DNA of 64,000 nucleotides from an uncultured Bacilli bacterium. Its GTDB lineage: Bacteria; Bacillota_I; Bacilli_A; RF39; UBA660. Of this stretch, positions 1 to 59,542 are shown in pieces. The notes below the pieces were generated by a model. The model had not been told where the DNA came from. It did no database searches and saw only the letters and a program-made list of their open reading frames with translations. The DNA lies in the NCBI GenBank assembly GCA_947628535.1, contig CANRAF010000001.1, positions 268-64,267 of the forward strand. Reading direction: 5' to 3'. The translations under genes and the position numbers were made by a program. The first letter of the stretch is position 1, and the number at the start of each line of letters is the position of its first letter.

Positions 1-171
<171 letters not shown>

Positions 172-4665: not shown

Positions 4666-4695
4666 ATTATACCCCCCCCCGTATCGTTTTGTCAA
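4666..4695 (-). promoter_or_regulatory. sigma-A promoter with G9 tract in the spacer
   Basis: TTGACA-aaacgatac-G9-TATAAT, 18 nt spacer. Confidence 0.85.
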
Positions 4696-21157: not shown

Positions 21158-21703
21158 TTATTTTAAAGCAGCAATTAATTCTGCTTTTTTCATTGAAGTA
21201 TAACCTTCAACTTTTTTATCTTTGGCTATTTTTTTAAGTTCTGCTACAGTAAGTTTAGATAAATCTTCACTTGCTTTAGTATCTTTTTTTGCTTCGCTTT
21301 TTGCAGGTTTTTCTTTAGTTTCTTCTTGAACTTTTACAGTAGGTGCTTTTACTTTTTCTCCTTTAGCAATTTTTACTAAATCTTTAAATGCTTCTTTATC
21401 ATGAATTGCAAGTTCTGATAACATTTTTCTGTTAACTTCTACACCTGCTTTATTAAGGCCATCTATAAATCTAGAATAACTAATATCATTTACTCTACAT
21501 TCAGCATTAATTCTTGTTATCCATAACTTTCTAAAGTTTCTTTTTGTTTGTTTTCTATCACGATAAGCATATCTTTCAGAATGCATTACTTGTTCGTGAG
21601 CTGTTTTATAAAGTCTATGTTTACTACCAAAATAACCTTCTGCCTTTTTTAGTACTTTTTTACGTCTTGCACGTGTTGCAACACTATTTTTTACTCTTAC
21701 CAT
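21158..21703 (-). CDS. rplT: 50S ribosomal protein L20 with C-terminal Rho-N-like domain
   Basis: [24 protein letters not shown]; tail [35 protein letters not shown]. Confidence 0.97.
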
Positions 21704-24035: not shown

Positions 24036-24067
24036 ATATTATCACCCCCCCCCCCACGTATTGTCAA
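24036..24067 (-). promoter_or_regulatory. sigma-A promoter with G11 tract in the spacer
   Basis: TTGACA-atacgt-G11-TGATAATAT; spacer is 18 nt to GATAAT or 20 nt to TG-extended TAATAT. Confidence 0.75.
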
Positions 24068-27685: not shown

Positions 27686-27910
27686 TTACATAAAGGATAT
27701 TATAAGACAAGTAATTACAAATACTAATCCAAGAATTAAAGTTAATCTACTTATTACTAATTCTGAGCCGCGTTCTTTTCTATTTTTAAATAAATCACTA
27801 GTAGCACCAGACATAATATTACCCATATCGCCTGATTTACTGCTTTGAAGAAGCACTAGTGTTATTAATATGGCACATAATACTAATAAACAAATTTGTA
27901 CTATTTCCAT
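27686..27910 (-). CDS. secG: preprotein translocase subunit SecG
   Basis: LVLLQSSK...DLFKNRKERGSELVISRLT. Confidence 0.9.
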   Translation of the reverse strand: MEIVQICLLVLCAILITLVLLQSSKSGDMGNIMSGATSDLFKNRKERGSELVISRLTLILGLVFVITCLIISFM

Positions 27911-28024
27911 ACTATCCCTCCTTGTTAATAACTAAATGTATTTTAGCACAATATATGATTAAAAGCAAATATTTTTTACATATTTGCTTTTTTTGTAATT
28001 TCAATTTAAATTTACATCCACAAT

Positions 28025-31000
28025 TTATTTTTTTGTTTTATTTCTGTTATATACTTCATATGCTCCTACTGATACCAATGATAATCCTAATATTATTCCT
28101 ATAATTGATATAAAACTTCCTGTATCTGGTACCTCTATTACTGTTCCTTCTATTTCTTCTTTCTTTTTGTTTTGTTCTTCTATTACCTTATATTTTGCAT
28201 AGAATATTCTATCACTATCTAGTTTTATTTCTTCTCCAACTTTATATAATACTTCTCCATTTTCTATAATGCTATATCCTAATAGTATTCCATTTTTTAT
28301 ACTTCTTTGTGGTGCTATTACACTACAACTATTATATGTTGTCTTACAACTTATTTCTTCTTTTCCATTTTTATATATGAATGTTGCTGTTAATATTTTT
28401 ACTGTTTCATCTATTCTCAATTTATATATTTCATCTTTTGTTATTGATATTTTACTTCCTGGTTTTATTCCCTCATCTTCACTTGATATACTAAATCCTA
28501 TTATTTCATAGTTTGTTTCTTCTACTTCTGGTAAAGTTATATCACATGCTAATTCTTTATTGTATATATAACAACTTTCTGATGCTTTTGATATTTTTAT
28601 CTTGTTATTTGGTGTTTCGAATTTTGCTGTTAGTTTCTTTTTTGTTATTGCATATAACGTCATGTTATCTGTTATTGTTATTCTATCTCCAACTGCATAT
28701 TCTTTTTCCTTTGCTGTATTACTACTTGCGTATCCTATTATTTCATAGCCTTCTCTTGTTATATCTGGTAATACTATTTCACAATTACCCTCTCCTGTAC
28801 AGCTTAATGTTTTATTTTCTATACTTGCTCCATTTTCTTCTAATGTTAATGTATAAGTACTTGTTTCAGGTGGTTTTATTTCTTCCTTTTTATATACTCC
28901 ATATAATGTTATATCTTTTGTTAAAGTAATCTCAATTCCTACATTATAATCTACACTACCTCCATTTGTTAGACTCCACCCTAAAAATTCACCATCTGTT
29001 ACTGTTTTTTGAGGCGTTACTATTTTGCAGCTATCACCTGTTGTTCTACAACTTAATCTTTCTTCATTTCCGTTAAATATGAATACTGCTGTAAACTCTT
29101 TTATCTTTTTTGCTCTTGCATAGTATGTTGTATCCTGAGTTAATGTTACTATATTTCCTTCTAATATACCCATATCTTCATCTGTTGTACTGAATCCTAA
29201 TATTTCATAACCTGTTGCTGTTATATTTGGAAGTGTTATATTACATCCTGTTTCTTCATTATATATATAACAACTTTCTGATGCTTTTGTTATTGTTAAA
29301 TCACTATTTGTTGTTTTAAATGTTGCTGTTAGTTTCTTTTTTGTTATTGCATATAGTGTCGTGTCGCTTGATAATATTATTCTATCTCCAACCTCATATT
29401 CTTTTTCCTTTGCTGTACTACTACTTGCATATCCTATTATTTCATAGCCTTCTCTTGTTATATCAGGTAATACTATTTCACAATTACTCTCTCCTGTACA
29501 GATTAATGCTTTATTTTCTATGCTTGCTCCATTTTCTTCTAATGTTAATGTATAGGTATTTGTTATTATATTTTTGCTACAAGTACCATACATTGTTGTT
29601 ATACTTTTTGTTGGTGTATACTCTCCTCCTGTTTCATAAGTTATTTCTTTCCCATTTTCTTTTTCTGTCCAACCACATGTATATCCTGCCTTTGTAATCG
29701 TTGGTAATGTTACACTTGGCATTGCACTCCACTTTGCATATAGTGTTGTTGTTCCAAATTTGCTCCAATTACCATTTTCATCTGTATATCCTGTTATATT
29801 ATTTTGTAATACTGGACTTGTTGCATTGCTTAACACTAAACTTCCTGAACTTGCTTCTGTATACCATCCTTCAAATGTTGCTGTTGATGTTAATTCATTT
29901 GTTGATGATACTGTAGCATTATCTGAATCATTTCCTTCTGATGTTGTAAATCCTCTTATTTTATATTCTTTCTTTGGTAATGTTATACTCGATGGATTTA
30001 ATGTTTTTGTGTTATATGTTATTTGTAAACTTCCTGGTTGTACATCTGTTGTTGCTCCGTTACTATTTAAATTTATTTTTACTTCATTTAATTTTGTCTC
30101 GCACACTCCATATAATGTTACATTTTCTGTTGGTGTATATTGTGATCCTGATGCATAAGTTATTTCTTTCCCATTTTCTTTTTCTGTCCAACCACATATG
30201 TATCCTTCTTTTTCTATTGTTGGTAATGTTATCTTTTGTGCTTGCCATCTAGCATACAATGTAGTTGCTGCATTTCTTATCCAGTTCCCACTTGTATCCG
30301 TATATCCTGTTATATTATTTTGTAATACTGGACTTGTTGCATTGCTTAACACTAAACTTCCTGAACTTGCTTCTGTATACCATCCTTCAAATGTTGCTGT
30401 TGATGTTAGTTCATTTGTTGATGATACTGTAGCATTATCTGAATTACTTTCTTTTGATGTTTTAAATCCACTTACTGTGTGTTCTTTCTTTGGTATTGTT
30501 ATTGTACTTGGAGTTATTACCTTTGTGTTATATGTTATTTGTAAACTTCCTGGTTGTGCATCTGTTGTTGCTCCGTTACTATTTAATGTTATTGTATATG
30601 TATTTGGTATAAATGTTGAAGTTATTGTTCCTGCCGAACCTACTGTTACTATTGCTGGTGATTCTGAACTTGTTGATAATCCTGTAAATTTACTAAATGT
30701 ATATCCAGTATTTGCTGTTGCTGTTGATGTTATTGTTTCTCCACTTCTTGCTGTTAAACTCTTATTTCCTGAAGTTCCTGATGTTGTTGCTGTTACTCCT
30801 GTTTTATTACTTTGTGCTGTTACTTTATGACTTCCATTTCCATCTGTTGCTACTGTTATTTCATATTCTGTTCTATCAAACCACATTGAATATGTTGAAT
30901 CTGCTGTTAAACTTGGCACTGTTTGACTTACTGAAGCTGCTGTTTCACTTGCTGCCCCTGTGCTTATTCCTTTAAATGTTGATTCTGTTGCATGTGTTGG

Positions 31001-34000
31001 TACTTTATATATATTTGCCAATGTTAAACTTGTGCTGTTTGGTGCTATATACGTTTCTGTACTTTCTTGTTTATAGTTTGCTGTTGTATAAACTCCTTTT
31101 TCTCCACTTACTTTTAGTAACATATTATTTACTACATAACTTCTATATATTTGTGATACGCTTGTTGATGTATTTCCTGCTTCATCCTTACAGAATAAGT
31201 AATATTGACCAGCCTTATTTACTTCTGATGTTGTTGAGTAGTCTTTACTTGATGTTATTGAAGTATAATCACTATCTGTTGGTGCTGATTTTGTGCCAAA
31301 GTAGTATTTTGTTACTCCAGCTGTATCTGTACATGATAATGTTGCTGTTTGTTTTGCTGATTTTAATGTATTTGTTGTTGTTATTTTTCCTACCGGTTTT
31401 GTTGTATCATTACATTTTGCATATAGAGTTACTGATGCTGGACTTGTTGCCGTTGGTGTATAACTTGTTGTATAATCTGTACCATTTCCATCTGCTTGTG
31501 AATTCCATACACATGTATTTCCATCCTTACTTATTGTTTGAAGTGGAACTGCTACTGGTTTCCAGTTAGCTGTTAATGTTACTTCTCCATTTTTGTCTCT
31601 TAAGTTCTTAAAGTATGTATTTGTTGTTGTATCTCCTGTCCATATTCCATATGTTGGTAATGTTGATTCGCTTGGCCCTGCTCCTACTATCACTTCTCTT
31701 GATGATTCTCTTATTGTTCCTACTGCTGCTTTCTCATTGACTTTTTCTCCATCTAGATATATTTTCATTGTACTTCCATCATAGGTTGCTACTACCGTGT
31801 GCCATTCTTTAAATGGTATTGCTCCTGTACATACTGATGTCTGTGATGTATCTGTACTATTTAATGCAAATTGAAAACATGCTGCATTTGTATTTTGTTC
31901 CACATAAAATTCAAATCCATTTTTATTACTATAATTATCTATTAGTGCTCCCCCATTTTCTGTTCCTGCTTTTGTATAGAATTTTGCTACTACTGTTATT
32001 TTTTTTCCAAAATCTTTATTCCTTAATGATGTTGTAAAATAATCACTTGTTCCATTTAATTCTAATCCATTATAGAATATTCTATAAAATAATTGATTTG
32101 CATTTGTCGTATAGTTAAATGAATTAGTAAAGTTTTCTTTAATTTCAGCGTCTGTTAATACATCATTTATTATTAATGCTCTTGATATTAATCCATTATA
32201 ATAATTTCTTGTTCCTCCAGTTGTTTTACTTGCTGATGATGTTAGGCCTGCTGAGGCGTTACTTGTCCAGCCAGCAAATACTTGAGATTTACTATAATAT
32301 GGTCCTATTGTTGCTCCAGTGCCATTTTCTTCTCCTTTTACTGTTACTGTCTTTATTGGTGTTGAACAATATATTTCTTCGTCATATGTTCCGCTTGTTG
32401 GGCAATTACCATTATAATTTATTCCTCCATTCATTTCATATTTTATTGTGTATGTATTTGCATCAAACTTACCATATAAAGTTGCATTTGATGTCGGTGT
32501 ATATGATGCTCCTCCATTTTTAACTTTTGTTGTATATGTTCCTTCTTTATACCAACCATTAAATGTATATCCTGTTAATGTTGCATTTGGTAATGTTACT
32601 GCACTTGTTGTATATTTTGCGTACAATGTATGATTGCTTTCACTTATTAGGTTACTAGAATTGGATACTTTATTTACTAAGTTTTTATCGCTATACCATC
32701 CTTCAAATGTATTTGTACTTTTTTCACTTTTTGGATATGTACTACTTACTGTTTTTCCATAACTATATGTTGTTGTATAAGCATCTTTTGTAGTATTTGG
32801 TAAGTTTTTATATGTTTTATAGGCTACTAAATGATTACCTACTACATTTCCTCCATTATATTCTAAATTTACTGTTGTCCCATACACTCTTGTGGGCCTT
32901 AATACCCAAAATAAATCTTTGGCATATATCTCATATAATCTTGTAAATCCTGTTTTAGTACTGTTTTTATCATAATGTTTTACCCCTGCACTTGTAAAAT
33001 CTATAAACTTTGGATATCCATCACTATCTTGCCCTACATACATAAATGATTCTATTTTGCTCGTATTATTTGTTAAGTCAAATATTATATCTCCATATTC
33101 TAAATCATTTACACCTATTCCTATACTAAATCCATTATTTCTTGCTCTTATTAGCTTTTCTCTATCTCCATTATCATTACCTCTTAAATATCTTCCTCCA
33201 TATAATCCTGGCACCAACATCTCTCTTATGTTTTTTTGATTTCCTGTTAAATTTGCTGCCTTTGTATCTGTTTTCATATAGTATATTTTTTTCTTTTCTG
33301 TTCCTACTGTTACATCCTTAGTATTAAATAGTGCTGTAAGCATATCATTTTCGTTATTACTTTTAGCTCTTATATATCCTATATCTATTCCTAGACTATT
33401 ATAATAAATCATTTTAGCAAATTCTCCATCTGATAAAGTTATTGTACTTGTTATATTATCTAAATCTTTTTTGTAGTTATTTGTTATTGCACTTCCATTA
33501 TTTGTTATTTTTCCATTTTTCACTAAATTTTCAAATTTTGTTATTTCTTCTTCCATTTTTGTTATATTTATTCCGTTTATTGTTGGATTTACTTTTGTTT
33601 TTAACTCTCCTAATTGTAATGTTTCTCCTTCGTTTGTTGTTATTTTCATTCCTTTATTTGTTATATCTTTATCTGTTGTTACTTTTACTTTGTATTTATA
33701 TGTGTATGTTGGATTGTCATTACTGTAAACATTATCTACCATTCCACTATTTGGGATTATTTCATCTACTTTCCAAGTAATAGTTTTACTATTTTTATCA
33801 TAACTACAATTATTGCAACTATTTTCAACATATTCTGTACCATCTGGTATTTTATTTGTTATAGATAGATTTTTATATTGATAACTAGCACTATTTGTTG
33901 CATATTTCCATGTATATTTATTTGCTTCACAAGCACTCTTAGTGTAATACGCACCTCTTGAACAATAACTATAATTTGCTTTATTTTGTATTGTTAAATT

Positions 34001-35305
34001 ATAAGTTATTTCATCGCCCTCATTTACAGAATTTTTATCACTAATTGTATTATATGTTCTTCCATTTGTTCCATATTTTACATCTTCATATGCATATTGT
34101 CTTATTTTTAATCTTGATAGCTTTTCTCTTGCTACTGAATTATCTATTACATTTTGATCTACTGCTTTAGAAAAATCATCTGATTCTGTTGGTATAGTAC
34201 AAACATTAGTCCCGTTACAAAATTGATTTATAGGTCTTTCAACTGATATTCTATAACCTATTTGAGTACTAGTCTCAGTTAATATTTTTGTTGGGAACCA
34301 TTCTTCTACTGTATCATATCTGATTCCATATGTATCATCACCAGTGCTTTTCATTGATCCGTCTGAATTATAAGTATAATCAGCCCCATATGAATGAATA
34401 AGACCCTGTTCATTTTTATTTATAGCTCCTCCTACATATATCATTACATGACCAGGACTTCCTGATACACTCCCATCTGCATTTTTATTTCTAAATGCAT
34501 AATTAATAATATCTCCTGGTTGTAAAATACTTTTTAGTTCTGCTATAACCTTTGTACTTTTGCCTGCAATCTCTTTTTGAACTGCACTCACAGTTGTACC
34601 TTCTGCTTCAAAGTAATATACTGCTTGAGTTTTATTATTTTTATTATTATTTAAATAAGAGCCTGTTGTACTACTTACGTTGGTTTTATTATTGCTTGCC
34701 GTTTGTTTAGATATTGCAGCAAAATAACGTGTATCTACCCCTAAACCAACATTATTTACTTCTTTTTGGAACCATCCTTGATTTTGTTTAGTAGTATAAA
34801 AAATATCTGGATAATTTTTTATATTGCTGTCTGACATATTATAATATGGATATTTTTTACCATCATAAAAATATGAATAAGTCCCATTTTTATAATAATT
34901 AGAAAAATCATAACCTAAAGCATTTTTATAAACAATATACACAAATCCTGAACAATCGATGAAAAAATCATTAGTCATAGTTGTTTGTTCTGGAGTAACA
35001 TTTAAATTTCTCCAGGCCATTGTTCCGCTTACTGTAGCCTTTGTGAATCCATAATTTGTATCCTTTAAATTTTGTCCATAATCAGTATATAAATTATTAT
35101 AGTAATAACTTAATGCAGTTGCAACTACCATATCCTGCATTTTTTGTCTAGTAAATGTTTTATTTGTTATTGCATATGAATTTGATACTTTATATAATAT
35201 AAATACTCCTGCCATTAAGATTATTAAACATATTAAGCCCAAAAATACTTTTTTATATTCTTTTACTTTATTTAATACCCCCCCCCCAAGCATAATTTTC
35301 TTCAT
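28025..35305 (-). CDS. 2426-aa cell-surface protein: NlpC/P60-like domain, DUF11-like domain, InlB B-repeats, LamG-like domain, tandem repeats, VPDTG sorting signal
   Basis: AAGGAG RBS, signal peptide, DCSGFV and GHVMIYVG, WHTVVATYDG, TF/EGWY repeats, VPDTG plus TM plus basic tail. Confidence 0.85.
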   Translation of the reverse strand: MKKIMLGGGVLNKVKEYKKVFLGLICLIILMAGVFILYKVSNSYAITNKTFTRQKMQDMVVATALSYYYNNLYTDYGQNLKDTNYGFTKATVSGTMAWRNLNVTPEQTTMTNDFFIDCSGFVYIVYKNALGYDFSNYYKNGTYSYFYDGKKYPYYNMSDSNIKNYPDIFYTTKQNQGWFQKEVNNVGLGVDTRYFAAISKQTASNNKTNVSSTTGSYLNNNKNNKTQAVYYFEAEGTTVSAVQKEIAGKSTKVIAELKSILQPGDIINYAFRNKNADGSVSGSPGHVMIYVGGAINKNEQGLIHSYGADYTYNSDGSMKSTGDDTYGIRYDTVEEWFPTKILTETSTQIGYRISVERPINQFCNGTNVCTIPTESDDFSKAVDQNVIDNSVAREKLSRLKIRQYAYEDVKYGTNGRTYNTISDKNSVNEGDEITYNLTIQNKANYSYCSRGAYYTKSACEANKYTWKYATNSASYQYKNLSITNKIPDGTEYVENSCNNCSYDKNSKTITWKVDEIIPNSGMVDNVYSNDNPTYTYKYKVKVTTDKDITNKGMKITTNEGETLQLGELKTKVNPTINGINITKMEEEITKFENLVKNGKITNNGSAITNNYKKDLDNITSTITLSDGEFAKMIYYNSLGIDIGYIRAKSNNENDMLTALFNTKDVTVGTEKKKIYYMKTDTKAANLTGNQKNIREMLVPGLYGGRYLRGNDNGDREKLIRARNNGFSIGIGVNDLEYGDIIFDLTNNTSKIESFMYVGQDSDGYPKFIDFTSAGVKHYDKNSTKTGFTRLYEIYAKDLFWVLRPTRVYGTTVNLEYNGGNVVGNHLVAYKTYKNLPNTTKDAYTTTYSYGKTVSSTYPKSEKSTNTFEGWYSDKNLVNKVSNSSNLISESNHTLYAKYTTSAVTLPNATLTGYTFNGWYKEGTYTTKVKNGGASYTPTSNATLYGKFDANTYTIKYEMNGGINYNGNCPTSGTYDEEIYCSTPIKTVTVKGEENGTGATIGPYYSKSQVFAGWTSNASAGLTSSASKTTGGTRNYYNGLISRALIINDVLTDAEIKENFTNSFNYTTNANQLFYRIFYNGLELNGTSDYFTTSLRNKDFGKKITVVAKFYTKAGTENGGALIDNYSNKNGFEFYVEQNTNAACFQFALNSTDTSQTSVCTGAIPFKEWHTVVATYDGSTMKIYLDGEKVNEKAAVGTIRESSREVIVGAGPSESTLPTYGIWTGDTTTNTYFKNLRDKNGEVTLTANWKPVAVPLQTISKDGNTCVWNSQADGNGTDYTTSYTPTATSPASVTLYAKCNDTTKPVGKITTTNTLKSAKQTATLSCTDTAGVTKYYFGTKSAPTDSDYTSITSSKDYSTTSEVNKAGQYYLFCKDEAGNTSTSVSQIYRSYVVNNMLLKVSGEKGVYTTANYKQESTETYIAPNSTSLTLANIYKVPTHATESTFKGISTGAASETAASVSQTVPSLTADSTYSMWFDRTEYEITVATDGNGSHKVTAQSNKTGVTATTSGTSGNKSLTARSGETITSTATANTGYTFSKFTGLSTSSESPAIVTVGSAGTITSTFIPNTYTITLNSNGATTDAQPGSLQITYNTKVITPSTITIPKKEHTVSGFKTSKESNSDNATVSSTNELTSTATFEGWYTEASSGSLVLSNATSPVLQNNITGYTDTSGNWIRNAATTLYARWQAQKITLPTIEKEGYICGWTEKENGKEITYASGSQYTPTENVTLYGVCETKLNEVKINLNSNGATTDVQPGSLQITYNTKTLNPSSITLPKKEYKIRGFTTSEGNDSDNATVSSTNELTSTATFEGWYTEASSGSLVLSNATSPVLQNNITGYTDENGNWSKFGTTTLYAKWSAMPSVTLPTITKAGYTCGWTEKENGKEITYETGGEYTPTKSITTMYGTCSKNIITNTYTLTLEENGASIENKALICTGESNCEIVLPDITREGYEIIGYASSSTAKEKEYEVGDRIILSSDTTLYAITKKKLTATFKTTNSDLTITKASESCYIYNEETGCNITLPNITATGYEILGFSTTDEDMGILEGNIVTLTQDTTYYARAKKIKEFTAVFIFNGNEERLSCRTTGDSCKIVTPQKTVTDGEFLGWSLTNGGSVDYNVGIEITLTKDITLYGVYKKEEIKPPETSTYTLTLEENGASIENKTLSCTGEGNCEIVLPDITREGYEIIGYASSNTAKEKEYAVGDRITITDNMTLYAITKKKLTAKFETPNNKIKISKASESCYIYNKELACDITLPEVEETNYEIIGFSISSEDEGIKPGSKISITKDEIYKLRIDETVKILTATFIYKNGKEEISCKTTYNSCSVIAPQRSIKNGILLGYSIIENGEVLYKVGEEIKLDSDRIFYAKYKVIEEQNKKKEEIEGTVIEVPDTGSFISIIGIILGLSLVSVGAYEVYNRNKTKK
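28160..29557 (-). repeat. two intragenic repeats, period 699 bp (233 aa)
   Basis: TYTLTLEENGASIENK...CEIVLPDITREGYEIIGYASS occurs twice; cttgctcc anchor at 28824 and 29523. Outer limits approximate. Confidence 0.85.
29580..30586 (-). repeat. two intragenic repeats, period 516 bp (172 aa), with near-identical core
   Basis: gttgctccgttact anchor at 30051 and 30567; DNATVSSTNELTSTATFEGWYTEASSGSLVLSNATSPVLQNNITGYTD identical in both copies. Confidence 0.9.
35278..35287 (-). repeat. G10 homopolymer within codons 7-10 of the giant surface protein
   Basis: ctt-ggg-ggg-ggg-gta (L-G-G-G-V). Confidence 0.9.
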
Positions 35306-35400
35306 TTGGACTCACTCCTTTAGTTTCTTATAGTTTTATTATAACATAAGGTACAAAAAAAAGAAACCAATTAATTGGTTTCTTATTATTTTGTTACTTA

Positions 35401-43089: not shown

Positions 43090-43300
43090 AAAAAATTACA
43101 TCACCCAAGGACGATGTAATCGTGGTACCACCTTAATTTGTAATAGTTTATTACCTTATTTGTATATAACACATACCTGTGAATTGTTTTACTAAAGTTC
43201 AAACAATTAACTCCAAAGCTACCTTCAACTATATCTAATATCTATTTACACCAAACATAGACTCTCTTTAATTAAATGATAGTTTACTCCTCTTTTTCTT
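43090..43300 (-). promoter_or_regulatory. T-box riboswitch, Val specifier
   Basis: AGAGAG box, GGTGTAA, GAAG-GTA specifier (43222-43220), T-box AAGGTGGTACCACG (43134-43121), terminator TTACATC...GATGTAA plus U-run. Confidence 0.9.
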
Positions 43301-43306
43301 TGTTTT

Positions 43307-43423
43307 TTAATATAAATCCCTAATGGTTACTATTTCTCCTGCTACTAGGAAAATTACCATTAAGATTACAAATGCTAATATTAGAAAGGCCATAAGTCCC
43401 CAACCATGATTGTTTAGTTTCAT
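43307..43423 (-). CDS. 38-aa prepilin-leader-like micro-protein (absent from the ORF track)
   Basis: AGAGGTG RBS overlapping the trxB end; MKLNNHG-WGLMAFLILAFVILMVIFLVAGEIVTIRDLY. Confidence 0.6.
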   Translation of the reverse strand: MKLNNHGWGLMAFLILAFVILMVIFLVAGEIVTIRDLY

Positions 43424-50486: not shown

Positions 50487-50521
50487 ATTATAAGGATACC
50501 CCCCCCCTATACTTTTGTCAA
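50487..50521 (-). promoter_or_regulatory. promoter with G9 tract in the spacer
   Basis: TTGACA-aaagtata-G9-TATCCT-TATAAT; 17 nt to TATCCT, 23 nt to TATAAT. Confidence 0.7.
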
Positions 50522-55757: not shown

Positions 55758-56006
55758 TTAAGAAATTAATTTTAAAAAAGCTTCTTTGTGAAAGTTGTTT
55801 AAACTTCTCACCGAATAGTATTTCTGTGCCCTCCCATATTTCGAAAAATCCATATTGTATGATATGTATGTTAAACTCTGTTTCTTCCAGTATATCCTTA
55901 CTATTATCTCTGTCTCATACCCATTCAATCCCTTTTCTCTACATTTCTCTATTAATTCCTCTTTGTTCGTCGGTAAATTCATCAATGTCTTTAATCTCTT
56001 TGGCAC
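55758..56006 (-). CDS. sigma-region-4/ArpU-like HTH protein, copy 1
   Basis: ETEIIVRIYWKKQSLTYIS...YSVRSLNNFHKEAFLKL; GTG start overlapping the upstream stop; the 3 inter-copy SNPs are all synonymous in this frame. Confidence 0.65.
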   Translation of the reverse strand: MPKRLKTLMNLPTNKEELIEKCREKGLNGYETEIIVRIYWKKQSLTYISYNMDFSKYGRAQKYYSVRSLNNFHKEAFLKLIS

Positions 56007-56443
56007 TTCTCTTCTCCCTTTACTACTATATAGTTCATGTATACCGCTAACATACTACCTAATATTATACATAATAACACACTTACATATATGCTCGGTA
56101 TTAAGGCTGTTATTATATAAAATATTGTCCATGTGAATGTCGTACATGCCACTGTCGAGTTTAAATGAAATGTCTCCCCTAAAAGTGTTCTCACAAAGAA
56201 AAATCCTATTAGAAAAAATGATAACTCTGCAAACGCATCATTAAAATATGCTATTACAAATACTCCCGCTGTTTGTATTAATTGAAGTGGTATTGTTATT
56301 CCATAAAATATTACATTTTCTATTATTCTCTCTAATTTTTCTGCTCTTGTTTGGGCAAAATTCTCTATCGATGCTGTATTATTAAACCAAATCCCGTTCT
56401 TTCTCTTTCTCTTCTCTTTTTCTTCGTTTCCTTTCTTATTCAT
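55991..56443 (-). CDS. AgrB-like membrane peptidase, copy 1
   Basis: VRTLLGETFHLNSTVAC retains R...G..H-x6-C (His-Cys spacing as in S. aureus AgrB H77/C84); about 4 TM; GGAGG RBS. Confidence 0.65.
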   Translation of the reverse strand: MNKKGNEEKEKRKRKNGIWFNNTASIENFAQTRAEKLERIIENVIFYGITIPLQLIQTAGVFVIAYFNDAFAELSFFLIGFFFVRTLLGETFHLNSTVACTTFTWTIFYIITALIPSIYVSVLLCIILGSMLAVYMNYIVVKGEEKCQRD

Positions 56444-56505
56444 TTATTCCTCCTATTTGTTTAATAATAGACAAGGGCCCTTTTATCTATTATTCTTTTT
56501 ATTTA

Positions 56506-56598
56506 TTATTTTGCTATGTTAACTACTTTTTTTGCTAGTTTCTTTGCAAATTTGTTTTCTTTGTCGAATTTGCCCCACCATAATAGGCTTTGTCCCAT
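56506..56598 (-). CDS. 30-aa peptide MGQSLLWWGKFDKENKFAKKLAKKVVNIAK, copy 1 (absent from the ORF track)
   Basis: AGAGGTG RBS, ATG at 56598, TAA-TAA; overlaps the 3' end of the membrane-protein gene in another frame. Confidence 0.65.
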   Translation of the reverse strand: MGQSLLWWGKFDKENKFAKKLAKKVVNIAK

Positions 56599-57190
56599 CT
56601 TTTACACCTCTTTTCTTTAAATATACTTCTTTTACTAATATAATTATTCCCATAATTATAAAGTAATCTATTGATAATAAATTCCTCGTTGTTTCATTTA
56701 TTTGTGTAAAATCTATAAATCTTACTTTATACATATATGTTATTCCTTCTATTACTACATTTAATCCTATACTTAAAAATATATATATGATACTTCTTAT
56801 TTTTCTTTTTGAATATATATAACCAAATACTATGAAGAAGATTATTACAAATAATTGTGCTATTCCTTTATCAAATATTCCTACTACTAATATATTTAGT
56901 AATAAATATACAATACTAAATTTAAATAATTTCTTGGCATCTTTTACTCTAAACACTATGAGCATAACTGCATAAAAATTTAATATGATAACTATCCAAT
57001 TTGTTATATAATCTATTGCTTTTATAACATTTATTTCCTTTAGATTTTCATATGTTACTGCATAATGTGGAAATCCCATACTTTCCATAGCTGTATTGAA
57101 TATTATTAACATAACCATTATTATCAGTAACCACACTACTACCTTTGCTATTTTCTCATTTACCCCTAACCATTTTATGAAATCCTTCAT
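56519..57190 (-). CDS. multi-pass membrane protein (about 6 TM, no kinase domain), copy 1
   Basis: GAGGT RBS before MKDFIKW; hydrophobic helices; TATAAT at 57215-57210. Confidence 0.75.
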   Translation of the reverse strand: MKDFIKWLGVNEKIAKVVVWLLIIMVMLIIFNTAMESMGFPHYAVTYENLKEINVIKAIDYITNWIVIILNFYAVMLIVFRVKDAKKLFKFSIVYLLLNILVVGIFDKGIAQLFVIIFFIVFGYIYSKRKIRSIIYIFLSIGLNVVIEGITYMYKVRFIDFTQINETTRNLLSIDYFIIMGIIILVKEVYLKKRGVKDGTKPIMVGQIRQRKQICKETSKKSS

Positions 57191-57351
57191 ATATACTACC
57201 TCACTTCCGATTATACTATATCTATCTTTCTTTGTAACGCAATTGTTACGCAAATGATGTGCTTTTCCATTTTTTTCCATTTACTATTTTATCATCTTTT
57301 TAATTTGTAATGGAACTTATTTGTTACTTTATTTATATTATAATGTTTTTA

Positions 57352-57380
57352 TTGAGTTTTTCATAGTTTTATGTTATAAT
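57352..57380 (+). promoter_or_regulatory. ssrA promoter
   Basis: TTGAGT-17-TATAAT with TG extension, 8 nt before the tmRNA 5' end. Confidence 0.75.
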
Positions 57381-57388
57381 TAGTCCAC

Positions 57389-57733
57389 GGGGACGATAGG
57401 GTTCGACAAGAGTATAATGATTTAAACTGCAAGTAGATGGCAATCTTTAAATGCATTTTTAAAAATAACTGGAAACAGACAATTACAATTCGCTTAATTT
57501 AATTAACTAGAGCGAGCTCTTGTATATTCTCTGCTTACTGGAATATATTAGGGTAATACTAAGTAGGCTATATTACTATAGTTCCTATATATAGTAATGA
57601 ATTTTTATAGGATAGTTGTCTATGTGGTTGTTAATTGCTTTGTGGATAATGAATTTTTTCAATTAACTAAACTTGTAGATGTTTAAATTTAATTTGCTTT
57701 TGGACAGGAGTTCAATTCTCCTCGTCTCCACCA
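57389..57733 (+). ncRNA. ssrA: tmRNA
   Basis: 5' GGGGACG...TTCGAC pairs with 3' CGTCTCCACCA (G3:U), T-loop TTCAATT, ATAACT resume context followed by tag ORF GNRQLQFA-stop (57471-57497). Confidence 0.95.
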
Positions 57734-57757
57734 TTAAGTAATAATTTTTTTATAAAT

Positions 57758-57831
57758 GCCGATTTAGTTTAGTGGTAAAACAGATGCATGGTAAGCATCA
57801 GAGATCAGTTCAATTCTGTTAATCGGCACCA
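57758..57831 (+). tRNA. tRNA-Thr(GGU)
   Basis: GCCGATT/AATCGGC acceptor stem, GATGC-ATGGTAA-GCATC anticodon arm, ACCA end; one T-stem mismatch. Confidence 0.85.
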
Positions 57832-57895
57832 GAGTGTTTTTTGTAAAAACATTTTTATGATATATTAAATATGTTTCAAAATTTTGTATAAAGTA

Positions 57896-57929
57896 AAAAC
57901 TTAGCAAAAATATTAATTTGCTAAGTTTT
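57896..57929. terminator. hairpin between ssrA-tRNA and cassette copy 2
   Basis: AAAACTTAGCAAA...TTTGCTAAGTTTT. Confidence 0.75.
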
Positions 57930-57957
57930 ATTTTTATTATATCTGAAGAATAAAAAG

Positions 57958-58206
57958 TTAAGAAATTAATTTTAAAAAAGCTTCTTTGTGAAAGTTGTTT
58001 AAACTTCTCACTGAATAGTATTTCTGTGCCCTCCCATATTTCGAAAAATCCATATTATATGATATGTATGTTAAACTCTGTTTCTTCCAGTATATCCTTA
58101 CTATTATCTCTGTCTCATACCCATTCAATCCTTTTTCTCTACATTTCTCTATTAATTCCTCTTTGTTCGTCGGTAAATTCATCAATGTCTTTAATCTCTT
58201 TGGCAC
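57958..58206 (-). CDS. sigma-region-4/ArpU-like HTH protein, copy 2
   Basis: Protein identical to copy 1. Confidence 0.65.
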   Translation of the reverse strand: MPKRLKTLMNLPTNKEELIEKCREKGLNGYETEIIVRIYWKKQSLTYISYNMDFSKYGRAQKYYSVRSLNNFHKEAFLKLIS

Positions 58207-58643
58207 TTCTCTTCTCCCTTTACTACTATATAGTTCATGTATACCGCTAACATACTACCTAATATTATACATAATAACACACTTACATATATGCTCGGTA
58301 TTAAGGCTGTTATTATATAAAATATTGTCCATGTGAATGTCGTACATGCCACTGTCGAGTTTAAATGAAATGTCTCCCCTAAAAGTGTTCTCACAAAGAA
58401 AAATCCTATTAGAAAAAATGATAACTCTGCAAACGCATCATTAAAATATGCTATTACAAATACTCCCGCTGTTTGTATTAATTGAAGTGGTATTGTTATT
58501 CCATAAAATATTACATTTTCTATTATTCTCTCTAATTTTTCTGCTCTTGTTTGGGCAAAATTCTCTATCGATGCTGTATTATTAAACCAAATCCCGTTCT
58601 TTCTCTTTCTCTTCTCTTTTTCTTCGTTTCCTTTCTTATTCAT
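58191..58643 (-). CDS. AgrB-like membrane peptidase, copy 2
   Basis: Identical to copy 1. Confidence 0.65.
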   Translation of the reverse strand: MNKKGNEEKEKRKRKNGIWFNNTASIENFAQTRAEKLERIIENVIFYGITIPLQLIQTAGVFVIAYFNDAFAELSFFLIGFFFVRTLLGETFHLNSTVACTTFTWTIFYIITALIPSIYVSVLLCIILGSMLAVYMNYIVVKGEEKCQRD

Positions 58644-58705
58644 TTATTCCTCCTATTTGTTTAATAATAGACAAGGGCCCTTTTATCTATTATTCTTTTT
58701 ATTTA

Positions 58706-58798
58706 TTATTTTGCTATGTTAACTACTTTTTTTGCTAGTTTCTTTGCAAATTTGTTTTCTTTGTCGAATTTGCCCCACCATAATAGGCTTTGTCCCAT
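58706..58798 (-). CDS. 30-aa peptide, copy 2
   Basis: Identical to copy 1. Confidence 0.65.
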   Translation of the reverse strand: MGQSLLWWGKFDKENKFAKKLAKKVVNIAK

Positions 58799-59390
58799 CT
58801 TTTACACCTCTTTTCTTTAAATATACTTCTTTTACTAATATAATTATTCCCATAATTATAAAGTAATCTATTGATAATAAATTCCTCGTTGTTTCATTTA
58901 TTTGTGTAAAATCTATAAATCTTACTTTATACATATATGTTATTCCTTCTATTACTACATTTAATCCTATACTTAAAAATATATATATGATACTTCTTAT
59001 TTTTCTTTTTGAATATATATAACCAAATACTATGAAGAAGATTATTACAAATAATTGTGCTATTCCTTTATCAAATATTCCTACTACTAATATATTTAGT
59101 AATAAATATACAATACTAAATTTAAATAATTTCTTGGCATCTTTTACTCTAAACACTATGAGCATAACTGCATAAAAATTTAATATGATAACTATCCAAT
59201 TTGTTATATAATCTATTGCTTTTATAACATTTATTTCCTTTAGATTTTCATATGTTACTGCATAATGTGGAAATCCCATACTTTCCATAGCTGTATTGAA
59301 TATTATTAACATAACCATTATTATCAGTAACCACACTACTACCTTTGCTATTTTCTCATTTACCCCTAACCATTTTATGAAATCCTTCAT
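58719..59390 (-). CDS. multi-pass membrane protein, copy 2
   Basis: Identical to copy 1. Confidence 0.75.
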   Translation of the reverse strand: MKDFIKWLGVNEKIAKVVVWLLIIMVMLIIFNTAMESMGFPHYAVTYENLKEINVIKAIDYITNWIVIILNFYAVMLIVFRVKDAKKLFKFSIVYLLLNILVVGIFDKGIAQLFVIIFFIVFGYIYSKRKIRSIIYIFLSIGLNVVIEGITYMYKVRFIDFTQINETTRNLLSIDYFIIMGIIILVKEVYLKKRGVKDGTKPIMVGQIRQRKQICKETSKKSS

Positions 59391-59542
59391 ATATACTACC
59401 TCACTTCCGATTATACTATATCTATCTTTCTTTGTAACGCAATTGTTACGCAAATGATGTGCTTTTCCATTTTTTTCCATTTACTATTTTATCATCTTTT
59501 TTAGCCCTTTTTATTTTTTTTAACATAAAAAAAAGAATTTTG

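What the first reader, a model, noticed from the sequence alone, without database searches (positions are those of the whole stretch)
35270..35320. Frameshift ON/OFF switch at the start of a 7.3-kb gene
G10 lies in codons 7-10 after a strong RBS. G9 gives ...ggg TAT TAA and G11 gives ...ggt att aaa TAA, so any single slip terminates translation within a few codons. The assembled state is ON. This is an economical switch for a very costly surface protein.
Basis: seen in the sequence. Interest (0 to 1): 0.7.

Follow-up and report, generated by a model that had tools for sequence, protein, structure and literature searches.

The report
Poly-G on/off switch, giant surface protein
A run of ten G's in the first codons of a 7.3-kb surface-protein gene in an uncultured rabbit-gut bacterium has the full layout of a slippage on/off switch of the kind known from Neisseria and Campylobacter, but no available data could show the run changing length.

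Summary
G10 (window 35278-35287, minus strand) covers codons 7-9 and the first base of codon 10 of a 2426-aa ORF (28025-35305). An AAGGAG site lies 9 nt before the ATG. G7, G10 and G13 keep the frame open. Every other length from G6 to G14 stops after 9-13 residues.

The tract is not chance. The 64-kb window (28% GC) has no G/C run of 6-8 but four of 9-11. All four are G on the coding strand at the 5' ends of exported-protein genes. By contrast, 203 kb from relatives has none of 8 or more.

The three glycines are not a protein requirement. About nine residues including them are an insertion absent from six aligned homologues. None of about 140 family representatives has GGG near its start. No usable start codon lies downstream of the tract.

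Length variation could not be tested. Only one low-depth sample holds the gene, and its contigs break around the tract. Those contigs do suggest that the promoter, ribosome-binding site and start region also sits in front of other genes, and one copy includes the G tract.

Verdict: probable translational phase-variation switch, one locus of a lineage-specific poly-G set in an uncultured member of the Bacilli. It is a new member of a known kind.

The parts
35278..35287 (-). G10 homopolymer (C10 on the + strand). It covers codons 7-9 and the first base of codon 10 and is the proposed slipped-strand switch.
35303..35305 (-). ATG start codon. A second in-frame ATG is codon 5 at 35291-35293. Both lie upstream of the tract.
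35315..35320 (-). Shine-Dalgarno AAGGAG, 9 nt before the ATG.
35338..35346 (-). Extended -10 promoter element TGTTATAAT, with no good -35. It is inferred from the sequence.
   Evidence: Homologues have similar TGnTATAAT elements upstream.
35361..35384 (-). Intrinsic terminator of the upstream tuf gene, so the surface-protein gene is its own transcription unit.
35272..35274 (-). TAA stop read when the tract is G9, G12 or G6 (the -1 frame).
35268..35270 (-). TAA stop read when the tract is G11, G8 or G14 (the +1 frame).
35171..35305 (-). Leader and signal peptide MKKIMLGGGVLNKVKEYKKVFLGLICLIILMAGVFILYKVSNSYA. About nine residues at positions 2-10 (KKIMLGGGV) are an insertion, 12-19 are the charged n-region, and 20-37 are the hydrophobic core.
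28025..35305 (-). ORF of 2426 aa. It has an N-terminal domain with an invariant Cys118/His286/His304 (NlpC/P60-like), five Flg_new repeats and a Laminin_G_3 domain. It also has internal 300-nt repeats and a C-terminal sorting-signal-like tail.
28028..28132 (-). C-terminal VPDTG motif, a 20-residue hydrophobic stretch, and a basic tail NRNKTKK. The layout resembles a sortase sorting signal.
   Evidence: The NCBIfam LPXTG model did not hit.
35316..35346 (-). 30-31-nt module from the -10 element to the Shine-Dalgarno site. In the sample's contigs it is exactly shared with at least three other upstream contexts.

Best explanation
The G10 tract is a slipped-strand mispairing (contingency) switch that acts at the level of translation. 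Transcription starts from an extended -10 promoter just after the tuf terminator. Ribosomes load at AAGGAG/ATG and cross the tract within the first ten codons. With G10 (or G7, G13) they go on to make a 2426-aa exported protein that is probably anchored to the cell wall. It carries a Cys-His-His hydrolase-like head, Listeria-Bacteroides repeats and a lectin-like LamG domain. When replication slippage adds or removes one G, translation stops after 10-12 residues and the protein is not made. Reverse slippage restores it. The population would therefore always contain ON and OFF cells.

The tract-bearing codons look like a lineage-specific 5' graft placed ahead of the gene's own signal peptide. 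The locus is one of several poly-G loci in this genome: three promoter-spacer tracts lie in the same window.

Shown here: the anatomy, the frame consequences, the non-chance statistics, the non-conservation of the glycines, and the absence of a downstream start.

Inferred, not shown: actual length variation, switching rate, surface location and biological purpose.
For: (1) Frame logic: only lengths of 10 plus or minus 3n are open, and all others stop within 9-13 residues.
(2) Statistics: there are four G/C runs of 9-11 and none of 6-8 in 64 kb at 28% GC. The expected number of C runs of 10 or more is about 0.001. No run of 8 or more occurs in 203 kb from homologue loci and three syntenic sister species.
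(3) All four runs are G on the coding strand and lie between about -60 and +30 of the starts of genes for exported or membrane proteins. These are a zinc-ribbon/FxLYD protein, a Flg_new secreted protein, a prepilin-type protein, and the target. [quoted passage not shown]
(4) The glycines are not needed by the protein. KKIMLGGGV is gapped in all six homologues. None of about 140 family representatives has GGG in its first 30 residues. The closest relative (62% identity) starts directly at (M)KVVKEKY, which corresponds to window residues 12-19. GGG is only 7% of Gly codons here.
(5) The start is upstream of the tract. The Shine-Dalgarno site is 9 nt from ATG1, and there is no such site or viable signal peptide for the downstream TTG22 or ATG31.
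(6) Contigs from the sample show a second copy of the -10/SD/ATG/G-tract module (64 of 69 identical, gapless). It is joined to a different coding sequence, which would be OFF at G10 and ON at G9 if its first codons match the window's.
Against: No length polymorphism was seen. The gene occurs only in one rabbit-gut sample (four runs, 3-5x depth, kept as contigs), and none of its contigs spans the tract in this gene's context.

No same-species strain exists in the collections searched.

The tract length comes from a low-depth metagenome assembly, and the 5' module is repeated. Both the exact count and the join could therefore be assembly choices.

Sister species with 96%-identical EF-Tu lack long tracts. 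The system is therefore young or narrow, and a neutral origin cannot be formally excluded.
Confidence: 0.68

Rival explanations
1. The tract is real but functionally static. It would be a by-product of a lineage-specific mutational or recombinational process, such as spread of a repeated 5' module, that is tolerated in an unconstrained part of the leader. It would have no selected ON/OFF role.
For: No variation was observed. The module appears to be repeated, so the tract could hitch-hike. Sister species lack such tracts.
Against: A G10 tract mutates by slippage in every bacterium where this has been measured (general knowledge; PMC6321876 states that tracts of 8 or more mediate switching). 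A tolerated but unselected tract would decay. Instead there is a gap at lengths 6-8 and a mode at 9-11, and all four tracts sit at the 5' ends of exported-protein genes.
Confidence: 0.15
2. Assembly or sequencing artefact. The tract, its exact length, or the join between the repeated 5' module and this gene would be an error of a low-depth metagenome assembly. Examples are poly-G read artefacts or collapse of a repeat.
For: Depth in the only holding sample is 3-5x, and public contigs of that sample do not cover 35212-35315 in this context. The 30-nt segment from the -10 element to the Shine-Dalgarno site is shared with at least three other loci.
Against: The ORF is open across the tract, with a coherent Shine-Dalgarno site and ATG upstream and a signal peptide downstream. 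The other three tracts give -35/-10 spacings of 17-18 nt, which random artefacts would not do. An independent contig carries a gapless G-tract copy of the module. A miscounted length would change the reported state, not the nature of the switch.
Confidence: 0.1
3. The tract acts at another level. Translation would really start downstream and the G run would lie in a 5' UTR or promoter, as at the three neighbouring loci. Alternatively, RNA-polymerase slippage on the G run would make every genotype leaky, so the switch would be a dimmer and not an ON/OFF switch.
For: The three other tracts in the window are promoter-spacer tracts. Transcriptional slippage on long homopolymers is known in bacteria (general knowledge).
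Against: No -35/-10 pair brackets this tract. The only in-frame downstream starts lack a Shine-Dalgarno site and would truncate the signal peptide. The strong Shine-Dalgarno site is correctly spaced for ATG1.
Confidence: 0.05

Closest known systems
Neisseria gonorrhoeae / N. meningitidis pilC (Jonsson et al. 1991, cited in PMC5953494, which lists pilC as G(9-20), genic)
   Same: It has a poly-G tract in the 5' coding region of a large surface-exposed, adhesion-related protein gene. As I recall the original paper, the tract is in the signal-peptide part. Slips of plus or minus one G frameshift the gene and switch the protein ON or OFF.
   Different: The host is a Gram-negative pathogen and the protein is unrelated. 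Switching there is shown experimentally. Here the host is an uncultured Gram-positive-type gut member of the Bacilli, and variation is not shown.
Campylobacter jejuni poly-G phasome (PMC6321876)
   Same: It is a low-GC genome in which G/C runs are otherwise rare. Tracts are G9-G10, almost always G on the coding strand. There are many loci per genome, and most affect surface structures.
   Different: Campylobacter tracts are about 80% intragenic. In this window three of four are promoter-spacer tracts. The phylum differs. Whether this organism lacks mismatch repair, as Campylobacter is said to (my recollection), is untested.
Mycoplasma surface-lipoprotein switches: M. hominis Vaa (poly-A in the 5' coding region) and M. 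hyorhinis vlp (poly-A in the promoter spacer). Details are from my own knowledge. Rosengarten and Wise are cited in PMC11868660.
   Same: The hosts are in a low-GC Bacilli-related lineage. Both translational (5' coding) and promoter-spacer homopolymer switches act on surface proteins. The 5' regions are conserved among paralogous genes.
   Different: Those use poly-A tracts, which are common in AT-rich DNA, and lipoproteins of wall-less cells. Here the tracts are poly-G and the product looks like a wall-anchored giant protein.
Group A Streptococcus mga poly-C tract, 8C to 7C (Lei et al. 2023, cited in PMC11868660)
   Same: It is a Gram-positive example of a G/C homopolymer frameshift that alters surface-protein expression.
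   Different: It is a single regulatory gene with low-frequency switching, and reversion was seen only in animals. It is not a multi-locus set.

Membership tests
SSR-mediated translational phase-variable (contingency) gene | Homopolymeric G/C tract of at least 7-8 units inside the reading frame | tested here: met
   G10 lies at codons 7-10. The cut-off of 7 or more is the one used in PMC6321876.
SSR-mediated translational phase-variable (contingency) gene | Gain or loss of one unit frameshifts and truncates the product | tested here: met
   G9 stops after 10 residues and G11 after 12.
SSR-mediated translational phase-variable (contingency) gene | Tract over-represented relative to base composition and to relatives | tested here: met
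   Expected about 0.001. Four runs of 9 or more occur in 64 kb, against none of 8 or more in 203 kb of relatives.
SSR-mediated translational phase-variable (contingency) gene | Tract length differs between cells, strains or samples | tested here: inconclusive
   Only one sample holds the gene, and its contigs do not span the tract. No other strain was found in any collection.
SSR-mediated translational phase-variable (contingency) gene | High-frequency reversible switching of the phenotype | not testable with these tools
   This needs culture or a reporter assay.
Sortase-anchored (LPXTG-type) surface protein | N-terminal signal peptide | tested here: met
   There is a charged n-region at residues 12-19, a hydrophobic core at 20-37, and SYA before a likely cleavage site. 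No dedicated signal-peptide predictor was run.
Sortase-anchored (LPXTG-type) surface protein | C-terminal LPXTG motif, hydrophobic stretch and basic tail recognised by the curated model | tested here: inconclusive
   The tail has VPDTG, 20 hydrophobic residues and NRNKTKK. The NCBIfam scan gave no LPXTG-anchor hit. Homologues end in IPDTA or IPNTN with a transmembrane stretch and basic tail.
Sortase-anchored (LPXTG-type) surface protein | Cognate sortase encoded in the genome | not tested
No sortase was seen among the 31 window proteins scanned against Pfam.
NlpC/P60 papain-like hydrolase domain | Pfam PF00877 match at the gathering score | tested here: not met
   The score was 17.3 bits against a cut-off of 23, E = 0.0049, for residues 115-140 only. 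Homologue P0002 carries a precomputed PF00877 hit.
NlpC/P60 papain-like hydrolase domain | Conserved Cys ... His ... His/polar catalytic residues | tested here: met
   D117-C118-S119, G285-H286 and H304-S305 are invariant in seven sequences.
NlpC/P60 papain-like hydrolase domain | Papain-like fold | tested here: inconclusive
   The model had mean pLDDT 59. Foldseek against PDB gave no match with E below 0.09.
Listeria-Bacteroides repeat (Flg_new, PF09479) protein | Pfam match above the gathering score | tested here: met
   The score was 106.9 bits against 27, in five stretches.

The most novel reading that the evidence does not exclude
The tract may be part of a portable 5' switch cassette of about 70 nt: extended -10, UTR, Shine-Dalgarno site, ATG, MKKIML codons and poly-G. 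Under this reading the cassette has been grafted by recombination in front of the native signal peptides of several unrelated surface-protein genes. Together with the promoter-spacer G tracts, it would give an uncultured, non-pathogenic gut member of the Bacilli a multi-locus, Campylobacter-like poly-G phasome that arose recently, since it is absent from sister species with 96%-identical EF-Tu.
Probability: 0.35. Interest if true: 0.6.

Novelty: new member of a known kind. Interest (0 to 1): 0.42.

Why it matters
Homopolymer phase variation is textbook biology in Neisseria, Haemophilus, Campylobacter, Bordetella and mycoplasmas. [quoted passage not shown]

This locus and its three neighbours put a dense poly-G set in an uncultured rabbit-gut commensal of the Bacilli. 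The set combines translational and promoter-spacer switches and acts on a giant adhesin- or hydrolase-like protein, a secreted repeat protein, a pilin-like protein and a small membrane protein.

For people who annotate metagenome-assembled genomes, it also means that 'pseudogenes' and truncated surface-protein genes in such genomes may be OFF phases. Tract lengths in low-depth assemblies should not be taken at face value.

Tried and rejected
(1) Read-level test of G9, G10 and G11. The look-up of sequencing runs found only one sample (runs X1-X4, rabbit gut) that holds the gene. It is kept as contigs at 3-5x depth, and these break around this tract and around the G11 tract.

(2) Other strains or species carrying the gene. 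The search for related loci in genome contigs and metagenome contigs found none. Exact leader patterns found none in either collection. The exact protein is not on record.

(3) Orthologues in sister species. Three species with 94-96%-identical EF-Tu keep the synteny around tuf and secG but carry other cargo, or nothing, in the tuf-secG slot. They have no G/C run of 8 or more.

(4) Tracts in homologue loci. There are none of 7 or more in L001-L010.

(5) Downstream start codon: rejected.

(6) A hidden promoter bracketing the tract: no -35 element lies at a usable distance (read by eye).

(7) Function of the N-terminal domain. PDB sequence search gave only chance-level hits. The AlphaFold model was poor (pLDDT 59) and Foldseek found nothing significant.

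(8) Whole-genome census of tracts, mismatch-repair genes, sortase, and other copies of the cassette.
Full report
**Observation**

The finding lies on the minus strand. The + strand has C10 at 35278-35287. On the gene strand the sequence reads AAGGAG (35320-35315), nine bases, then ATG AAG AAA ATT ATG CTT GGG GGG GGG GTA TTA AAT AAA....

The ORF runs from ATG 35305 to the stop at 28025 and encodes 2426 aa. I rebuilt the gene with tract lengths 6-14:
- G7, G10 and G13 leave the frame open.
- G9, G12 and G6 read TAT TAA.
- G11, G8 and G14 read (G)GT ATT AAA TAA.
- Every out-of-frame length therefore yields a peptide of 9-13 residues.

All coordinates were re-verified.

**More than chance?**

Yes. 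The window is 28% GC. The expected number of C runs of 10 or more is about 0.001, and of G runs about 0.00002.

The run-length spectrum is more telling.

| Source | Length 4 | Length 5 | Length 6 | Length 7 | Length 8 | Length 9 | Length 10 | Length 11 |
|---|---|---|---|---|---|---|---|---|
| Window, 64 kb | 46 | 8 | 0 | 0 | 0 | 2 | 1 | 1 |
| Relatives, 203 kb non-redundant | 124 | 15 | 4 | 2 | 0 | 0 | 0 | 0 |

The relatives are low-GC genomes, comprising homologue loci and three syntenic sister species. Their counts decay smoothly and none reaches 8.

All four long runs in the window are G on the coding strand, and all lie at the 5' ends of genes for exported or membrane proteins (product assignments).

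| Tract | Position | Setting | Downstream gene product |
|---|---|---|---|
| G9 | 4672-4680 | TTGACA-N18-TATAAT spacer | Zinc-ribbon/FxLYD protein |
| G11 | 24045-24055 | TTGACA-N18-GATAAT spacer | Secreted Flg_new protein |
| G9 | 50499-50507 | TTGACA-N17-TATCCT spacer | 773-aa protein with a prepilin N-terminus |
| G10 | 35278-35287 | Coding, codons 7-10 | The 2426-aa target |

Lengths of 9-11 and the G-on-coding-strand bias match Campylobacter. [quoted passage not shown] One caveat applies. Almost every gene in this window is on the minus strand, so 'coding strand' cannot be separated from 'this replication strand'.

**Is the tract needed by the protein?**

No.
- In an alignment with six homologues (29-36% identity), about nine residues at positions 2-10 (KKIMLGGGV) are gapped in all six.
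- A search of 1.84 billion representatives found 141 family members. Apart from the query itself, none has GGG in its first 30 residues.
- The closest relative (P0011, 62% identity, locus L009) starts at GTG AAA GTT GTT AAA GAA AAA TAT. That is (M)KVVKEKY, which matches window residues 12-19, NKVKEYKK.
- The window's gene therefore has about 12 extra codons at its 5' end, and they include the tract.
- GGG is only 7% of Gly codons in the window's genes.

**Where does translation start?**

It starts upstream of the tract. The Shine-Dalgarno site is 9 nt from ATG 35305. Downstream of the tract the only in-frame start codons are TTG (codon 22) and ATG (codon 31). Neither has a Shine-Dalgarno site. 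They would delete the charged n-region (residues 12-19) or half the hydrophobic core (residues 20-37).

The gene has its own transcription unit. The tuf terminator is at 35384-35361. It is followed by an extended -10 element, TGTTATAAT, at 35346-35338.

**What the gene encodes**

- Pfam gives five Flg_new (Listeria-Bacteroides) repeats (E = 6e-31) and a Laminin_G_3 domain (E = 2e-15). It also gives a sub-threshold NlpC/P60 hit at residues 115-140.
- Cys118, His286 and His304 are invariant in the family. A hydrolase or transglutaminase-like head is plausible.
- The fold could not be confirmed. The model had pLDDT 59 and there was no significant Foldseek or PDB sequence match.
- The C-terminus is VPDTG, then 20 hydrophobic residues, then NRNKTKK. 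This looks like a sortase sorting signal, but the curated LPXTG model did not hit.
- The gene also has 300-nt internal direct repeats at 78-86% identity.

**Genomic context**

The organism is an uncultured member of the Bacilli. EF-Tu relatives at 94-96% identity exist, and one is named 'MAG: Bacilli bacterium'. The only sample holding the gene is a rabbit gut metagenome.

Three sister species keep the order lgt-trxB-HD-valS-rpsL-rpsG-fusA-tuf-[slot]-secG-rnr-smpB. The slot between tuf and secG differs between them:
- it is empty in one locus;
- it holds a MerR/T4SS-coupling-protein island in some;
- it holds an HTH/helicase island in others;
- it holds a 578-aa cytoplasmic protein in one species.

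In the window the slot holds this gene. secG is at 27686-27910. The target is therefore accessory cargo in a variable slot. None of the sister species has an orthologue to compare.

**Does the tract vary?**

This could not be determined. The four runs of the single holding sample are kept as contigs at 3-5x depth. No contig covers 35212-35315 in this gene's context, and the same happens at the G11 tract. No other strain exists in the collections searched.

**An unexpected observation from those contigs**

Several contigs begin or end with an exact 30-31-nt match to 35316-35346, the segment from the -10 element to the Shine-Dalgarno site. They then continue upstream into at least three different sequences. 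None of these is the window's tuf terminator. Their depths are 3.3-4.7, like the organism's own.

One 172-nt contig matches 35277-35345 at 64 of 69 positions with no gap across the G tract. That stretch covers the -10 element, UTR, Shine-Dalgarno site, ATG, first codons, G tract and one further base. The contig then continues into a different coding sequence.

If its first codons are as in the window, that copy is OFF at G10 (…GGGVI-stop). It would be ON at G9 or G12 (…GGGLYKRKIKYIT, a typical signal-peptide n-region).

Its 5' end shares short words with this one, which may be the same copy.

The 5' module thus appears to be multi-copy. This fits a grafted, portable switch cassette. It also explains why the assembly graph breaks here. 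It means that the join and the tract length in the assembly deserve caution.

**Mechanism**

I judge slipped-strand ON/OFF control of translation to be the best explanation (confidence 0.68). It is one locus of a lineage-specific poly-G set that also uses promoter-spacer tracts. The rivals are:
- a real but unselected tract (0.15);
- an assembly artefact in the tract, its length or the join (0.10);
- action at another level, such as a downstream start or transcriptional slippage (0.05).

The 'economy' rationale is not supported by anything tested. Bet-hedging of an exposed, possibly phage- or host-targeted surface structure is the usual reading (PMC11868660).

**Comparison and novelty**

The closest analogue in layout is neisserial pilC, with a poly-G in the 5' coding region (PMC5953494; Jonsson 1991). 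The closest genome-wide analogue is the Campylobacter poly-G phasome (PMC6321876). The closest phylogenetically are mycoplasma poly-A switches and the streptococcal mga poly-C tract (PMC11868660).

This is a new member of a known kind. The host lineage and the possible cassette are the new elements.

For that reason I could not do the genome-wide tract census, the search for mismatch-repair genes and sortase, or the mapping of cassette copies.

Noticed in passing
window 4666-4695, 24036-24067, 50493-50521 (minus strand): Three more poly-G tracts (G9, G11, G9) lie between perfect TTGACA -35 boxes and -10 boxes. They give spacers of 18, 18 (to GATAAT) and 17 nt. They sit upstream of genes for a zinc-ribbon/FxLYD protein, a secreted Flg_new protein and a 773-aa prepilin-type protein. 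The layout is that of promoter-spacer phase variation.
   Followed up: partly
window 35316-35346 and 35277-35345; contigs of runs X2-X4: The sample's contigs share the segment from the -10 element to the Shine-Dalgarno site exactly with at least three other upstream contexts. One contig carries the whole module, including a gapless G tract, joined to a different gene. The 5' switch module therefore looks multi-copy.
   Followed up: partly
window 27686-35400 compared with loci L011-L026: The tuf-secG interval is a variable cargo slot in this clade. It is empty, or holds a MerR/T4SS-coupling-protein island, an HTH/Peptidase_U49/helicase island, or a 578-aa protein. In the window it holds the 7.3-kb surface-protein gene.
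   Followed up: yes
window 21158-21703; L015 19257-20857; L024 19653-21185: Ribosomal protein L20 here carries a C-terminal Rho_N/HeH-like domain. In sister species both L20 and S2 carry it.
   Followed up: no
window 55991-59480: Two near-identical gene pairs (150 aa plus 253 aa) flank the tmRNA gene (57389-57733) and a tRNA (57758-57828). This is a direct duplication around ssrA.
   Followed up: no
window 28425-30544: The surface-protein gene contains long internal direct repeats: 300 nt at 86% identity, 300 nt at 78% and 116 nt at 85%. They could allow size variation by recombination.
   Followed up: no
window 32900-33500 (residues about 600-800 of the protein): There is a second conserved block (MLVPGLYGGRxLRGNDNGDR ... 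LEYGDII ... YVG) that is invariant across homologues. It resembles a degenerate NlpC/P60 domain without the catalytic Cys.
   Followed up: no
L011/L017/L018 near 11549 and L022 11549-11555: In sister species a G6 run (three loci of one species) or a G7 run (another species) forms the ribosome-binding region of a 91-aa gene at the start of the MerR island. These short G runs differ between species, but the flanking sequence differs as well.
   Followed up: partly
window 1-171 (minus strand): Rfam matches a partial bacterial 16S rRNA here (model positions 1-118, so the gene's 5' end, cut by the window edge). There is also a T-box leader at 43104-43309 ahead of the HD/valS genes.
   Followed up: no
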